A stretch of DNA of 32,251 nucleotides from Candidatus Woesearchaeota archaeon (lineage in GTDB: Archaea; Nanobdellota; Nanobdellia; Pacearchaeales; GW2011-AR1), in NCBI GenBank assembly GCA_964407005.1, contig CAYOTW010000003.1, positions 1 to 32,251 on the forward strand, written 5' to 3'. The position numbers were made by a program, and so were the translations under genes. Positions 1-15,205 of the stretch are shown here, piece after piece (the stretch's first letter is position 1; each line of letters starts with the position of its first letter). The notes under the pieces were generated by a model. That model did no database searches, was not told the origin of the DNA, and saw nothing but the letters and a program-made list of their open reading frames with translations.

Positions 1-231
1 AATATACAAAAAATCGTTTCAAATACTGCAAAAAGAGCAGGGCTAAAAAAGGAAGTCCATTGCCACACACTAAGACATAGTTTTGCAACACATCTTTTAG
101 AGAACAATGTGGACATAAGAAAAATCCAGGAACTGTTAGGGCACAGTAATTTAGCAACAACCCAGATTTATACTCACATCTCTTCAGAAGAACTTAAAAA
201 AATAAAATCCCCTCTAGACAATTTATTTTAA
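1..231 (+). CDS. Tyrosine recombinase (XerA/XerCD-like), C-terminal fragment; 5' end lies outside the window
   Basis: Frame-1 translation reads [76 protein letters not shown], stop TAA at 229-231. HxLRHSFAT, LLGH and the catalytic Tyr in IYTH are the box II signature of tyrosine recombinases. Absent from the ORF track because it has no in-window ATG. Confidence 0.85.
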
Positions 232-5429: not shown

Positions 5430-5962
5430 TTTATAAATAGATTATGCCTTTGAATCTCTGTTAGTTCCTCAAAGATCCTTTTTTCTATAGCTTTTTTAGG
5501 ATCAGGAATGTTTGTTACCCTTTCCTTAACATCTTCAAAGCTTTGAAATTCTTTGTCTTTCCTCGCTTCTAATATTGCCTTTGCATGCTTTTTACCAAAT
5601 CCTGGAAGCAACTCAAATTGATGCAACCGAGTATTCATTGCTTGGGCTTTATTAAAAAACTCTACAAATTTTGATTCGTTTTCTTCAACTTGTGAATGTA
5701 TAAACTCTTCTAACTGACTTTTTGCAGTTTCAGTTAGATTCTCTCTTGGAAGTCTTCCAAGGATATATAAAACTTTTTCTCTTTTGCCCTCACCAATATA
5801 AACTTCTTCTTTAACATCAAAAGTCATACCTCTTCGAGGAACAATCTGTAAAAGCGTAAAATTTTTATTTCCCACAGCCTGAGCTATAGGCATCATTTTT
5901 TTCTCTAAAGGATATCCATATGGTAGGAAATCCAACACAATTGCGTATTCTTCTTTCTCCAT
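5426..5962 (-). CDS. DUF655/COG1491-type predicted RNA-binding protein (OB-like N-terminus plus helix-hairpin-helix C-terminus)
   Basis: EEYAIVLDFLPYGYP... followed by ...MNTRLHQFELLPGFGKKHAKAILEAR. Its neighbourhood next to rpoF/rpl21e is conserved in archaea. Confidence 0.75.
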   Translation of the reverse strand: MEKEEYAIVLDFLPYGYPLEKKMMPIAQAVGNKNFTLLQIVPRRGMTFDVKEEVYIGEGKREKVLYILGRLPRENLTETAKSQLEEFIHSQVEENESKFVEFFNKAQAMNTRLHQFELLPGFGKKHAKAILEARKDKEFQSFEDVKERVTNIPDPKKAIEKRIFEELTEIQRHNLFIK

Positions 5963-5964
5963 TT

Positions 5965-6267
5965 TTACTTATATTTTTTAACAACCTCAAGTATCTTGTT
6001 GACTTCATCTTGATTTAATGAAACATCTGCAATCACCTTATTAATTTCAACAGCACTTTCAGGCATAAAATCAACAATCTTCACAAGATGTTTTTCCCTT
6101 AATTTAATTAAATCTAATTGAGATAATTCCTCTTTCATTTCCTTAGCTTTTTCTACAGAGATATTTGAAAATTTTTTAATAAAAGATTTAACTTCTTTTT
6201 CTCTATCTGAATCTCCAGCTAGGTCTGCTACCTCTGCTAGTGTTAATGGTTTTGAATCTTTAATCAT
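5965..6267 (-). CDS. rpoF: RNA polymerase subunit F (Rpo4, Rpb4-like)
   Basis: 100-aa helical protein, PLTLAEVADL...KAKEMKEEL...KIVDFMPESAVEINKVI. Conserved L21e-RpoF-DUF655 order. Confidence 0.8.
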   Translation of the reverse strand: MIKDSKPLTLAEVADLAGDSDREKEVKSFIKKFSNISVEKAKEMKEELSQLDLIKLREKHLVKIVDFMPESAVEINKVIADVSLNQDEVNKILEVVKKYK

Positions 6268-12965: not shown

Positions 12966-13066
12966 GAGGGAGTGCCGGAGCGGTCAAACGGGACGGACTC
13001 AAGATATACGATTAATGAGTAATCCGTTGGCTTATGCCTACAGGGGTTCGAATCCTCTCTCCCTCA
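12966..13066 (+). tRNA. tRNA-Leu(CAA) with an 18-nt intron at the canonical 37/38 site
   Basis: GAGGGAG TG CCG GAGCGGTCAAA CGG G ACGGA CTCAAG[atatacgattaatgagta]A TCCGT TGGCTTATGCCTAC AGGGG TTCGAAT CCTCT CTCCCTC A. CTCA (anticodon loop) pairs with TGAG (intron) between 3-nt bulges, forming a bulge-helix-bulge motif. Confidence 0.88.
13004..13021 (+). other. tRNA intron (canonical position, BHB motif)
   Basis: See the tRNA-Leu(CAA) fold. Mature length is 83 nt after removal. The boundary is ambiguous by 1 nt (a/a). Confidence 0.75.
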
Positions 13067-13157
13067 TTAGCAGGATTCGAATAGTTCGAATCACTTCAAT
13101 CTTGCAAAAGTTGAAGTCCCAGAAATTTTCAATTTCTGAGCTCTCTCCCTCATTAGC
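13067..13157 (+). repeat. tRNA-Leu 3'-end echo unit 1: T-loop look-alikes, the 48-nt two-hairpin module (13093-13140), then an exact copy of the tRNA 3' end plus flank (ctctctccctcattagc, 13141-13157)
   Basis: ttcgaatc|MODULE|ctctctccctca. Deleting the module restores the tRNA sequence 13047-13066 exactly. The 52 nt at 13089-13140 are identical to 14849-14900 and 14930-14981. Confidence 0.9.
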
Positions 13158-13270
13158 CTATCAAAGATAGGCTGGAGACGAATGCTATAAACTCTCTATA
13201 ATTTTATTACAGGGGCGAATAATTCGCTTCGACAACTATCTGTATAAGATGGAGATGCAAATTGTGAGCA

Positions 13271-13433
13271 GAATCCTCTCTCCCTCATTAGCAGGATTCG
13301 AATAGTTCGAATCACTTCAATCTCTATGCAGAACGCAGTGGACAATTTCAAAGGAAAGTTGAGCCACAAGAAAACCTTGGTTTTCTTAGGAGTTGAAGTC
13401 CCAGAAATTTTCAATTTCTGAGCTCTCCCCCTA
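13271..13433 (+). repeat. tRNA-Leu 3'-end echo unit 2: a 53-nt exact copy of 13050-13102, a long variant of the module, and a degenerate tRNA 3' end
   Basis: 13271-13323 equals 13050-13102. The 8-nt tip of hairpin 1 (tgcaaaag) is replaced by 69 nt (13324-13392), which contains a 9-bp hairpin aagaaaacc/ggttttctt. The rest of the module (13393-13422) is identical. It is followed by ctctcccccta. Confidence 0.88.
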
Positions 13434-13454: not shown

Positions 13455-13476
13455 CTAAATTTCTAAAATACTTTAT

Positions 13477-13552
13477 GCCCTTGTAGCTCAGCTTGGATTA
13501 GAGCACTTCCCTCCTAAGGAAGGGGTCGCAGGTTCGAGTCCTGCCGAGGGCG
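13477..13552 (+). tRNA. tRNA-Arg(CCT)
   Basis: GCCCTTG TA GCTC AGCTTGGATTA GAGC A CTTCC CTCCTAA GGAAG GGGTC GCAGG TTCGAGT CCTGC CGAGGGC G. 76 nt with a standard cloverleaf. Confidence 0.9.
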
Positions 13553-13598
13553 TAAAACCTGCTCGCAAGTTCCACATAAAGTGTACCCACAAGGGGCA

Positions 13599-13618
13599 GA
13601 GTCCTGCCGAGGGCGTAA
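13599..13618 (+). repeat. Exact 20-nt echo of the tRNA-Arg 3' end plus 3 nt of flank (gagtcctgccgagggcgtaa equals 13536-13555)
   Basis: Direct repeat separated from the original by 43 nt (13556-13598). The echo starts inside the T-loop (TTC|GAGT). Confidence 0.9.
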
Positions 13619-14760: not shown

Positions 14761-14831
14761 GCGTGGGTAGTTTAGTGGCAGAATCTTTGGCTTCCAACCA
14801 AATGACCCGGGTTCGAATCCCGGCCCGCGCA
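14761..14831 (+). tRNA. tRNA-Gly(TCC)
   Basis: GCGTGGG TA GTTT AGTGGCA GAAT C TTTGG CTTCCAA CCAAA TGAC CCGGG TTCGAAT CCCGG CCCGCGC A. 71 nt. Confidence 0.9.
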
Positions 14832-14993
14832 TTTCTTGGCCGGGATGTAATCACTTCAATCTTGCAAAAGTTGAAGTCCCAGAAATTTTCAATTTCTGAG
14901 CCGGCCCGCGCATTTCTTGGCCGGGATGTAATCACTTCAATCTTGCAAAAGTTGAAGTCCCAGAAATTTTCAATTTCTGAGCCGGCCCGCGCA
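14820..14993 (+). repeat. 81-nt perfect tandem repeat (2 full copies plus a 12-nt third start). Each unit is the tRNA-Gly 3' end ccggcccgcgca, a T-arm look-alike, and the 48-nt two-hairpin module
   Basis: 14820-14900 equals 14901-14981 exactly, and 14982-14993 repeats ccggcccgcgca. Module copies lie at 14853-14900 and 14934-14981. Confidence 0.93.
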
Positions 14994-15038
14994 TACGCAA
15001 TCGAACAAAGTGAGATGCGTGTTGGATTCTAAGCAGAA

Positions 15039-15117
15039 CCGGGTTCGAATACAACAAATTGCTTTGCAATTTGTGTTGCCAAAATTATGAAAGAATTTTT
15101 AGCACCCGGCCCGCGCA
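15039..15117 (+). repeat. Partial tRNA-Gly T-arm/acceptor copy interrupted by a different 54-nt two-hairpin cassette
   Basis: ccgggttcgaat|acaacaaattgctttgcaatttgtgttgccaaaattatgaaagaatttttagca|cccggcccgcgca. Removing 15051-15104 restores tRNA positions 49-73 exactly. Confidence 0.88.
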
Positions 15118-15167
15118 CACTTTTTCAATTAAAGCTTGACGGCACTAAAAATCTTTGATTTTTTTAG

Positions 15168-15179
15168 CCGGCCCGCGCA
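15168..15179 (+). repeat. Fifth and last exact copy of the tRNA-Gly 3' end (ccggcccgcgca)
   Basis: Preceded by a 50-nt insert (15118-15167) that contains the hairpin aaaaatc-ttt-gattttt and ends in ag. It is followed by tac, as is copy 3. Confidence 0.88.
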
Positions 15180-15205
15180 TACATAATTCCAATAAAAACA
15201 AAAAA

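What the first reader, a model, noticed from the sequence alone, without database searches (positions are those of the whole stretch)
13271..13433. A long variant of the module: the GCAA-capped tip of hairpin 1 is replaced by a 69-nt insert with its own hairpin
The second Leu(CAA) echo copies 53 nt of the tRNA end, trailer and module start exactly (13271-13323 equals 13050-13102). The tip of H1 (tgcaaaag) is then swapped for ctatgcagaacgcagtggacaatttcaaaggaaagttgagccacaagaaaaccttggttttcttaggag. After that the module resumes identically (ttgaagtcccagaaattttcaatttctgag).

Both H1 stem strands are preserved around the variable segment. This is how expansion segments behave in structured RNAs, and also how internally deleted MITEs relate to their parents. 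The 48-nt form could be the deletion derivative of this 109-nt form.

The trailing tRNA 3' end here is degenerate (ctctcccccta against ctctctccctca), as expected for an unselected outermost scar.
Basis: seen in the sequence. Interest (0 to 1): 0.6.

Follow-up and report, generated by a model that had tools for sequence, protein, structure and literature searches.

The report
Hairpin module carrying a nested insert
Behind a tRNA-Leu gene of a tiny DPANN archaeon, one copy of a 48-base two-hairpin repeat carries an extra 69 bases at the tip of its first hairpin, and most of that extra piece is a copy of a promoter-like hairpin motif found across the whole order, so the long form looks like one small repeat nested inside another, not the parent of the short form.

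Summary
13271-13323 repeats 13050-13102 exactly (53 nt). The module resumes at 13391, and only the H1 tip differs: 6-8 nt in the short form (S) against 67-69 nt in the long form (L).

The genome is a 1.2-Mb DPANN MAG whose relatives are labelled Pace-/Woesearchaeota. About half of its tRNA genes are followed by arrays of tRNA-specific trailer + hairpin module + 12-18-nt echo of that tRNA's 3' end.

The short module A occurs in at least 20 genomes of the family, and their H1 spans are 26-41 nt. Long tips occur only here, in at least 5 copies behind 3-4 tRNAs, and once in another genus with an unrelated 57-nt insert at the same spot. So the H1 tip is the permissive site, and S is ancestral, not a deletion product of L.

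The insert is composite. X (13324-13349) is private to this genome. P (13350-13390) is a discrete 41-nt motif found across the order. In relatives P ends 8-12 nt before tRNA +1 or a leaderless ATG, which fits BRE/TATA geometry. It also lies in tRNA introns, in an rRNA spacer, and once directly before a tRNA echo.

Best reading: a nested mosaic of small portable hairpin elements. How they spread is unknown.

The parts
12966..13066 (+). tRNA-Leu(CAA) gene with a canonical-position intron. It anchors the array, and its last 12-17 nt are the 'echo' sequence.
   Evidence: Rfam tRNA, 43.9 bits. Sequence read.
13067..13092 (+). tRNA-specific frame of unit 1: trailer 'ttagc', a complement of the T-arm (aggattcgaa, pairs with 13047-13056), and a forward T-loop copy (ttcgaatc).
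   Evidence: Inverted repeat I5. The same layout, with other tRNA-specific sequences, stands behind Gly, Lys, Arg-TCT and Ile-TAT.
13093..13140 (+). Short module A (48 nt): H1 (ACTTCAA/TTGAAGT with a GCAA tip), then CC, then H2 (CAGAAATT/AATTTCTG), then AG.
   Evidence: 100% identical copies at 14853-14900 and 14934-14981 behind tRNA-Gly.
13141..13152 (+). Echo 1: tRNA positions 62-73 (ctctctccctca).
13153..13270 (+). Middle unit with a different module (family B). 13212-13268 is a 57-nt repeat present on more than 15 contigs. It ends just before echo 2 and has an AT-rich TATAAGA about 21 nt upstream of that echo.
   Evidence: BLAST against the own genome. Census.
13271..13287 (+). Echo 2: tRNA positions 57-73 (gaatcctctctccctca).
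13288..13313 (+). tRNA-specific frame of the long unit, identical to 13067-13092.
13314..13323 (+). H1 5' strand of the long module (acttcaatct).
13324..13349 (+). X: the 26-nt 5' part of the insert (ctatgcagaacgcagtggacaatttc). It is private to this genome. It also occurs in the long copies on C11 and C13.
   Evidence: No exact match in 185,579 species genomes or in JGI metagenomes.
13350..13390 (+). P: a 41-nt promoter-like motif, AAAGGAAAGTTGAGCCACAAGAAAACCTTGGTTTTCTTAGG. The BRE-like GGAAAG starts at 13353. The TATA position is occupied by TTGAGCCAC. The 9-bp hairpin is 13368-13376 / 13379-13387.
   Evidence: 40/41 identical to G019:C22 in another genus. The motif is found in 20 or more genomes.
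13391..13422 (+). Shared 'ag', then the H1 3' strand (ttgaagt, 13393-13399), ccc, H2 and ag, identical to 13109-13140. If P is active, the predicted start is about 13390-13394, reading rightwards.
   Evidence: The start-site inference comes from P-to-start distances in relatives.
13423..13433 (+). Echo 3, degenerate (ctctcccccta).
13476..13553 (+). tRNA-Arg(CCT), 43 nt downstream of the array. It has its own TATA-like box (cttttatacc) and its own 43-nt insert plus 20-nt echo (13536-13555 = 13599-13618).

Best explanation
The long variant is a composite. An ordinary module-A copy received a second small element in the apical loop of hairpin 1. That element is a 26-nt private piece X plus a 41-nt portable promoter-like hairpin motif P.

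Module A belongs to a set of short, non-coding, hairpin-forming repeats in Pace-/Woesearchaeota-type DPANN genomes. These repeats survive in the few places where extra DNA is harmless: behind tRNA genes between repeats of the tRNA's own 3' end, in tRNA introns, and in an rRNA spacer. They also nest into one another.

The base of H1 and H2 are the conserved, presumably cis-acting parts, so the H1 apex tolerates cargo. The composite then spread as a unit to at least 3-4 tRNA arrays of this genome by the same process that spreads or homogenises module A. That process is unidentified. I infer either ectopic recombination/gene conversion between module copies or a hairpin-recognising recombinase or transposase acting in trans.

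Shown: the anatomy, the copy census, the restriction of length variation to the H1 tip, the conservation and contexts of P, and the ancestral status of the short form.

Inferred: insertion as the event, promoter activity of P (predicted start about 13390-13394, reading rightwards through H2 and the echo towards tRNA-Arg), and the mode of spread.
For: 1. Exact repeats flank a single replaced tip.
2. Short module A with 8-21-nt tips occurs in about 18 genomes of a 401-genome scan, and also in G029, G024 and G037. The inner H1 pairs covary: CTT/AAG, CTC/GAG, AAAG/CTTT, ATTG/CAAT. The H2 pairs covary too: GAAAT/ATTTC, GAGAA/TTCTC, GAGAT/ATCTC, GAAAA/TTTTC.
3. Long tips occur only in G000 and once in G029:C3. 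The G029 insert is an unrelated two-hairpin 57-mer at the same position. A homologous two-hairpin piece interrupts a P copy in G083. Nesting is therefore recurrent.
4. The C13 long copy keeps the short-form tip 'tcttgtaaag' just before the insert.
5. P has sharp borders and is 40/41 identical to a copy in another genus that has different flanks.
6. Of about 35 P copies in relatives, 7 end 9-12 nt before tRNA +1, 5 have a leaderless ATG 8-9 nt after GGTT, and 1 is followed at +9 by a tRNA 3' echo.
7. The long form occurs behind Leu-CAA, Arg-TCT and Ile-TAT, and in a unit ending with the Lys-TTT echo. Each copy has tRNA-specific flanks.
8. All folds keep H1 as the closing stem.
Against: - No empty-site/filled-site pair at one orthologous locus was available, so 'insertion' rests on distribution and on the C13 junction.
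- In the window copy the short tip is replaced (ctatg instead of tgcaaa), not simply interrupted.
- L and the longer L2 are mosaics of each other. L has the intact P and L2 has the intact S tip. Recombination between copies must therefore also be invoked.
- P's TATA position here is G+C-rich (TTGAGCCAC), and the near-identical G019 copy is not next to a gene start. This P copy may be inactive.
- Some P copies point the wrong way for a promoter: antisense in tRNA-Asp introns and in a 16S-tRNA spacer.
- No enzyme could be tied to the modules. G008 has module A but no tyrosine recombinase or Y1 transposase hit.
- No expression data were available.
Confidence: 0.55

Rival explanations
1. Structured RNA with an expansion segment. 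The arrays are transcribed together with the tRNA, module A acts as an RNA (for example a spacer, processing or stabilising element), and the long variant is an RNA-level expansion of the H1 apex.
For: - Both hairpins covary.
- Many H1 tips are GNRA-type tetraloops (GCAA, GTAA, GTGA) closed by covarying pairs, with a conserved one-base bulge.
- tRNA-Cys on C13 sits 14 nt after the last echo of the Arg-TCT array and has no TATA box of its own. This suggests read-through of that array.
- The long form keeps H1 closed and folds into a three-hairpin junction.
Against: - The module is multi-copy, tandem and 100% identical between unrelated tRNA loci. It is not a single conserved orthologue.
- No Rfam family matches, even at E <= 5.
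- In G229 the inner part of H1 is inverted relative to other genera. That is neutral for a DNA palindrome but not for an oriented RNA loop.
- The long form discards the GNRA tip.
- DNA folds score as well as or better than RNA folds.
- This reading is compatible with the best explanation, not exclusive of it.
Confidence: 0.2
2. Parent and derivative, the first reader's MITE reading. The 109-nt form (or a still longer form) is the original element, and the 48-nt form arose from it by internal deletion.
For: - Long copies are the most tRNA-distal module-A copies in the four arrays whose end is assembled. They would be the oldest if arrays grow next to the tRNA.
- The echo after the window's long copy is the only degenerate one.
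- A graded series of 48, 109 and about 143 nt exists.
Against: - The short form with the same tip type is the widespread state across genera. X is found nowhere outside this genome.
- The C13 long copy contains the intact short tip.
- The longest copy is non-coding. Its extra 33 nt interrupt P, whereas P is intact in the shorter L and in another genus.
- No larger element was found by BLAST of the genome.
Confidence: 0.1
3. Recombination hybrid. L arose by unequal or ectopic recombination between a module A copy and a separate P-bearing sequence at the shared AAAGTTGA stretch, not by insertion of a discrete element.
For: - Module A's 3' half and P share the layout AAAGTTGA, then N, then an A/T-rich hairpin, then AG, along with weak sequence similarity. 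A P profile hits 7 of 14 module copies in one register, against 13 of 700 shuffles.
- The copies are mosaics.
- One unit on C11 has the frame of one tRNA and the echo of another.
Against: - The nhmmer scores are very low, at most 3.5 bits.
- In L both a full P and a full H1 3' strand/H2 are present in tandem. A single crossover at the shared motif would not give this.
- The G029 long tip has no such homology.
Confidence: 0.1
4. Assembly artefact. The long form is a chimera made by the assembler at a repeat.
For: The MAG is fragmented (244 contigs, several N gaps inside other arrays). Contigs often break at these repeats.
Against: - The window copy lies in gap-free sequence inside a 32-kb contig.
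- The same insert junctions recur on three other contigs with sequence differences of their own.
Confidence: 0.03

Closest known systems
Partial-tRNA direct repeats (attL/attR) left by integrative elements that target tRNA genes, including tandem remnants
   Same: The intact tRNA is followed by direct repeats of its own 3' end, starting in the T-loop or T-stem. The outermost repeat is degenerate.
   Different: The stretches between repeats are only 45-220 nt and non-coding. The same module stands behind at least 5 different tRNAs, each with tRNA-specific flanks. Each unit also holds an inverted copy of the T-arm. No integrase lies inside or next to the arrays.
Mosaic palindromic repeats of bacteria (REP/BIME, REPIN), with RAYT/IS200-IS605-type Y1 transposases, and archaeal PATEs
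   Same: Short imperfect hairpins of several families are combined in variable mosaics in intergenic DNA downstream of genes. They are multi-copy, non-coding, and conserve structure more than sequence.
   Different: Here the elements are tied to tRNA 3' echoes, tRNA introns and rRNA spacers. No similarity to the IS200/IS605 copies of this genome was seen. Y1 transposases do not co-occur with module A across genomes.
Integron attC sites (folded single-strand recombination sites with a variable terminal structure)
   Same: A conserved stem base with an unpaired base, and a hairpin apex that varies from a few bases to branched structures of more than 100 nt without loss of propagation. The arrays are ordered, with a fixed anchor at one end. 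Basis: my reading of the title and abstract of PMC2727003 (listed; the full text was not read) plus prior knowledge.
   Different: No IntI-type integrase, attI site or gene cassettes were identified. The repeated core is a tRNA 3' end.
Mobile GC-cluster palindromes of yeast mitochondrial DNA and Rickettsia palindromic elements
   Same: Very short hairpin elements that insert into one another and into RNA or protein genes where they are tolerated, in reduced genomes.
   Different: The hairpin cores here are A/T-rich, the organisms are archaea, and the elements are associated with tRNA 3' ends. It is not a test.
Archaeal BRE/TATA promoters (for the P part)
   Same: A purine-rich GGAAAG followed by TTTAATAAA/TTTGATAAA lies at about -36 to -22 from tRNA +1 or a leaderless ATG in relatives.
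   Different: The conserved 9-bp hairpin AAGAAAACC/GGTT(G/T)TCTT between the TATA position and the start is not a standard promoter element. The motif also occurs where a promoter makes no sense. The native tRNA promoters of this genome are CTTTAAAAA boxes, not P.

Membership tests
MITE (miniature inverted-repeat transposable element) | Terminal inverted repeats | tested here: not met
   The module ends, ACTTCAATC... and ...ATTTCTGAG, are not inverted copies of each other. The inverted repeats are internal (H1, H2).
MITE (miniature inverted-repeat transposable element) | Target-site duplication of fixed length | tested here: inconclusive
   A 12-18-nt direct repeat of the tRNA end flanks each unit. 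Its length differs by module family (12-13 nt for A, 17-18 nt for B), and it sometimes extends into the trailer.
MITE (miniature inverted-repeat transposable element) | A longer autonomous relative sharing the ends | tested here: not met
   BLAST of the genome finds nothing longer than the 143-nt non-coding copies. X is absent from the public collections scanned.
Scar of a tRNA-targeting integrative element | Direct repeat of the tRNA 3' part bounding the element | tested here: met
Scar of a tRNA-targeting integrative element | Integrase gene and cargo, or their remains, between the repeats; one element type per tRNA target | tested here: not met
   The units are 45-220 nt with no ORF. An identical module stands behind Leu, Gly, Lys, Arg and Ile tRNAs. 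Xer-like recombinase genes are elsewhere.
Archaeal BHB tRNA intron | Interrupts the only functional copy of the tRNA and is bounded by a bulge-helix-bulge motif | tested here: not met
   The upstream tRNA is uninterrupted at this position. By inspection, the bases at the two module borders cannot form the 4-bp central helix. This was a weak test and no dedicated BHB search was run.
Structured non-coding RNA with an expansion segment | Compensatory changes in helices | tested here: met
   Inner H1 and H2 pairs covary across genera.
Structured non-coding RNA with an expansion segment | Expression as a discrete RNA | not testable with these tools
Structured non-coding RNA with an expansion segment | Membership of a described RNA family | tested here: not met
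   No Rfam match at gathering score or at E <= 5.
Archaeal promoter (P motif) | BRE/TATA-like elements at a fixed distance from transcript or gene starts | tested here: met
   This holds for relatives: 13 of about 35 copies have a tRNA +1, a leaderless ATG or an echo 8-12 nt after GGTT. The window copy has a G+C-rich TATA position, so its activity is doubtful.
Archaeal promoter (P motif) | Mapped transcription start | not testable with these tools
Integron attC-like folded recombination site | IntI-type integrase next to the array, with R/L boxes | not tested
   Only a general Pfam tyrosine-recombinase scan was run. The hits look Xer-like and are not adjacent to the arrays.

The most novel reading that the evidence does not exclude
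The arrays are an archaeal, tRNA-anchored counterpart of an integron. The tRNA 3' end would be the fixed attachment core. The hairpin modules would be folded single-strand recombination sites whose apex is free to vary (the long variant). The units could then carry portable promoters (P) that fire exactly at the junction with the tRNA fragment, so that new transcription starts, or small tRNA-3'-end RNAs, are seeded behind tRNA genes.
Probability: 0.1. Interest if true: 0.85.

Novelty: new variant of a known kind. Interest (0 to 1): 0.55.

Why it matters
DPANN archaea have some of the smallest and densest genomes known, yet this one keeps hundreds of bases of hairpin repeats behind about half of its tRNA genes.

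The long variant shows three things:
- The repeats are modular and nest into each other.
- The hairpin apex is the tolerated cargo site.
- The cargo can be a motif that looks like the strongest conserved promoter type of the order.

This gives a concrete handle on how regulatory DNA could move around in genomes that have almost no classical mobile elements. It also gives a testable link between tRNA 3' ends, tRNA introns, rRNA spacers and small portable hairpins. I found no description of either the echo arrays or the P motif in the literature searched.

Tried and rejected
- **X part in public collections:** there were no exact matches in genome contigs or metagenome contigs. A 29-mer of the module found one Hainich groundwater contig (L086) with a module-A-like copy in a different, non-tRNA-looking context. 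I did not pursue it.
- **16-mer scan with 2 mismatches:** this was mostly noise, with many hits inside a peptidase gene. Only the hits with at most 1 mismatch were useful.
- **MAFFT/RNAalifold on module copies:** the loops were mis-aligned and only 4 H2 pairs were recovered. I used single folds instead.
- **P as part of an rRNA processing stem:** rejected. The 16S stem of G424 is formed by other sequences, and P lies inside it as an antisense passenger.
- **P hits in L019/L021:** these are a hairpin inside RNase P RNA, a false positive of my loose pattern.
- **CRISPR-like array:** rejected, because the 'spacers' are conserved modules.
- **Remote 11-mer matches of tRNA ends on other contigs:** these are chance hits in coding DNA, except C41.
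- **Link to IS200/IS605 or tyrosine recombinases:** no sequence similarity and no co-occurrence.
- **Homology of module A's 3' half with P:** only suggestive.

Full report
**1. Observation**

- The repeat finder gives 13050-13102 = 13271-13323 (53 nt, 100%) and 13109-13150 against 13391-13432 (42 nt, one mismatch).
- The short module A (S) is 13093-13140 (48 nt). The long one (L) is 13314-13422 (109 nt).
- They differ only between the two strands of hairpin 1: tgcaaa (13103-13108) against 67 nt (13324-13390).
- The echo after L (13423-13433) has one substitution and one deletion relative to ctctctccctca.
- tRNA-Leu(CAA), with an intron, is at 12966-13066 (Rfam). ARAGORN misses it or mis-types it.

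**2. Setting**

The window is contig C3 of a 1.2-Mb, 244-contig assembly with 36.8% G+C. Genomes of the same family and order carry record titles such as Candidatus Pacearchaeota, Woesearchaeota and Nanoarchaeia. tRNA introns and leaderless genes also fit a DPANN archaeon.

A census of all tRNA genes shows that about 17 of about 33 are followed by one to four copies of their own last 12-19 bases, separated by 45-220 nt of non-coding DNA. Each unit reads, in order:
- the tRNA end,
- a short trailer,
- an inverted copy of part of the T-arm,
- a forward copy of the T-loop,
- a module,
- the echo.

There are at least three module families.
- **A:** the echo starts at position 61/62. It stands behind Leu-CAA, Gly-TCC, Lys-TTT, Arg-TCT and Ile-TAT.
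- **A':** the same two-hairpin layout with other bases. It stands behind Tyr, Ser-GGA, Ser-CGA and Glu-TTC.
- **B:** the echo starts at about position 57. The window's 13153-13270 belongs here.

Three earlier notes of this scan describe the same arrays. I took them as leads and re-derived the facts used here.

**3. Is the variable region always at the H1 tip?**

Within this genome, module A occurs at 12 or more places. In a pattern scan of 401 genomes of the order (ACTTCA, N3-160, TGAAGTYCCAGAR), genuine copies appear in about 18 genomes, all of one family. Contexts checked are all tRNA, frame, module, echo.
- H1 spans 26-41 nt in every genome except this one.
- Many tips are GNRA-type loops (GCAA, GTAA, GTGA) closed by covarying pairs (CTT/AAG, CTC/GAG), with a one-base bulge after ACTTCAA.
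- Another subfamily has a 10-11-bp H1 (for example AAAG/CTTT, ATTG/CAAT).
- H2 covaries as well: GAAAT/ATTTC, GAGAA/TTCTC, GAGAT/ATCTC, GAAAA/TTTTC.

Long tips are of three kinds:
- the window's 69 nt;
- about 102 nt on C11, C13 and C26, which is the same insert plus 33 nt;
- an unrelated 57-nt two-hairpin insert in G029:C3 at the same place.

I found no copy with a length change in H2 or between H1 and H2. All long forms fold with H1 as the closing stem and H2 untouched.

**4. What is the insert?**

It has two parts.

X (13324-13349) recurs only in the other long copies of this genome, at 93-97% identity. It has no exact match in 185,579 species genomes or in the JGI metagenome contigs.

P (13350-13390, AAAGGAAAGTTGAGCCACAAGAAAACCTTGGTTTTCTTAGG) is a discrete unit.
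- A copy in another genus (G019:C22) is 40/41 identical, and the similarity stops exactly at both borders.
- Looser copies (GGAAAGTT, N5-9, AAGAAAACC TT GGTTGTCTT) occur in 20 or more genomes of four families.

Among about 35 copies I examined in relatives:
- 7 end 9-12 nt before position +1 of a tRNA;
- 5 have an ATG that opens a long ORF 8-9 nt after GGTT;
- several more precede ORFs that have Shine-Dalgarno-like leaders.

With the common middle TTTAATAAA/TTTGATAAA, this places a TATA-like box at -30 to -22 and GGAAAG at -36 to -31. That is the geometry of an archaeal BRE/TATA promoter driving leaderless transcripts. This is an inference from established promoter architecture, and no start sites have been mapped.

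P is not only a promoter, however.
- It lies inside canonical tRNA introns: sense in a tRNA-Leu, antisense in two tRNA-Asp genes.
- It lies antisense between a 16S gene and the 3' strand of that gene's processing stem.
- It points into the 3' end of a convergent tRNA.
- In one genome it takes the place of module A directly before a tRNA 3' echo (L067).

The native tRNA promoters of this genome are CTTTAAAAA boxes, not P. The window copy has a G+C-rich TATA position, so whether it fires is open. If it does, the start would be near 13390-13394, reading through H2 and the echo towards tRNA-Arg(CCT).

**5. Nesting is recurrent**

- The extra 33 nt of the longer L2 form sit inside P, in its variable middle. 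P is intact in L and in G019.
- In G083 a 54-nt two-hairpin piece (CCGC...GGGGCC...GCGG) interrupts a P copy at the same place. A homologous piece is the H1-tip insert of G029:C3.
- An H2-like hairpin lies in the long intron of a tRNA-Gly(GCC) that is split over C39/C41.

These genomes therefore hold several families of short hairpins, each with an A-rich and a T-rich strand and G+C clamps. They are combined as mosaics in DNA that is removed from, or lies outside, mature RNAs.

**6. Direction of change**

The short form is the widespread state, and its tip (TCTTG-YAAA-AG) is nearly the same in other genera. X is private to this genome. The C13 long copy reads acttcagtcttgtaaag|cagaacgcag...cttaggag|tgaagt. 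That is the intact short tip followed by the insert, as an insertion would leave it.

L and L2 are mosaics of each other. L has the intact P and L2 has the intact S tip. One unit on C11 combines the frame of tRNA-Ile with the echo of tRNA-Lys. Exchange between copies, or an assembly chimera in that single case, must be assumed.

At the Leu locus the frames of S and L are 100% identical over 53 + 31 nt. The S module is 100% identical to the two copies behind tRNA-Gly 1.8 kb away. Modules are thus exchanged or homogenised between loci, while the tRNA-specific frames are duplicated locally.

L-type copies are the most distal module-A copies in all four arrays whose end is assembled. That is the one point in favour of the parent reading.

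**7. Mechanism**

I could not identify the enzyme.
- Xer-like tyrosine recombinases occur in several copies at contig ends, one at window 4-189. Y1 (IS200/IS605-type) transposases are also present. Neither lies by the arrays.
- Neither co-occurs with module A across genomes. G008 has the module and no hit for either.
- The module shares no sequence with the IS copies.
- A profile of P hits module A's 3' half weakly but in a constant register: 7 of 14 copies, at most 3.5 bits, against 13 of 700 shuffles. The echo starts 2-3 nt after H2, about where tRNA +1 lies after P's hairpin. I record this as a resemblance, not as homology.
- Hairpin covariation and GNRA-type tips favour selection on a folded single strand. 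RNA and single-stranded DNA cannot be told apart here. DNA folds are at least as significant as RNA folds, and one genus has H1 inverted.

**8. Comparison with known systems**

The arrays share the tRNA 3' direct repeats of integrative-element scars, but they lack genes, an integrase and target specificity. The modules behave like mosaic palindromic repeats (REP/BIME-like, PATE-like) and, in the free apex of a conserved stem, like integron attC sites. They are not MITEs in the strict sense, having no terminal inverted repeats and no autonomous relative. They are not BHB introns of a functional tRNA, and they are in no Rfam family. Literature searches turned up no description of these arrays or of P in DPANN archaea. 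The search is limited to open-access text.

**9. Verdict**

The long variant is best read as a nested composite: module A with X + P in the H1 apex. It is derived from the short form and was then copied among several tRNA arrays.

The finding is one facet of a genome-wide, apparently undescribed system. What this report adds is the H1 apex as the cargo site and the identification of P as a portable, order-wide, promoter-like element. Function and mode of spread remain inferred.

Noticed in passing
whole genome G000 (for example C1:24237-24540, C10:11737-12100, C29:8783-9300, C53:1831-2087, window 14761-15180): About 17 of about 33 archaeal tRNA genes carry downstream arrays of 12-19-nt echoes of their own 3' end, separated by at least three families of hairpin modules (A, A', B and others).
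   Followed up: partly
L065 (CAZBOY010000005.1) 2430-2586; L010 (G018:C12); L071 (CAYORV010000027.1): The P motif lies inside canonical tRNA introns. It is sense in a tRNA-Leu(TAG) and antisense in two tRNA-Asp(GTC) genes of different genomes.
   Followed up: partly
L066 / G424:C2:142613-142642: P lies antisense in the 16S-tRNA spacer of an rRNA operon, between the 16S 3' end and the 3' strand of the 14-bp 16S processing stem.
   Followed up: yes
L067 (CAYHYK010000033.1), about 5780-5990 on the minus strand: P followed after 8 nt by an echo of the upstream tRNA's 3' end (ctgtcggagcca). P here substitutes for module A in an echo unit.
   Followed up: no
L016 (G035:C36) 1390-1545; L015 (G049:C5); L011 (G030:C29): Tandem arrays of 3 or more P copies stand directly upstream of an ORF or a tRNA. 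In L016 each repeat also holds the reverse complement (aggcatat) of the ORF start (atatgcct). This is the same 'inverted copy of the target' feature as in the tRNA echo units.
   Followed up: no
G000 C39:1-110 (minus strand) and C41:100-345: A tRNA-Gly(GCC) appears to be split over two contig ends by a long, internally repeated intron. The intron contains an H2-like hairpin (caagaaattgaaaatttcttg). It is followed by its own 107-nt insert and a 19-nt echo.
   Followed up: no
G000 C13:14790-14875 (minus strand): tRNA-Cys starts 14 nt after the last echo of the tRNA-Arg(TCT) array and has no CTTTAAAAA-type box of its own. It is probably co-transcribed through the array.
   Followed up: no
window 4-189; also the ends of C37, C23 and C39: C-terminal part of a Xer-like tyrosine recombinase at the very start of the window. 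It continues from the end of C37. Similar fragments lie at two other contig ends, so this is a multi-copy gene that breaks the assembly.
   Followed up: partly
G229:C17:12935-12967 compared with G008:C3:19235-19267: The inner part of H1 (AAACAAGTATATTT against AAATATACTTGTTT) is inverted between genera while the outer stem and H2 stay in place.
   Followed up: no
G000 C147:142-1840: A dense cluster of 8 tRNA genes with atypical 3' ends sits on a 1.9-kb contig. It looks foreign (phage-like or contamination).
   Followed up: no
window 13599-13618 and 13536-13555: tRNA-Arg(CCT) has its own 20-nt echo after a 43-nt insert of yet another type. Related 'tttcccac(a/t)gggat' inserts stand behind tRNA-Gln (C14) and on C41.
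   Followed up: no
C11:150-190 and C13, inside the L2 copies: By eye, the 33-nt extra piece of L2 (gaacgagcttgcgagctcttgca) resembles the 5' hairpin of module B (gcgaacatctttgctcttgac). This suggests the modules are mosaics of shared sub-hairpins.
   Followed up: no
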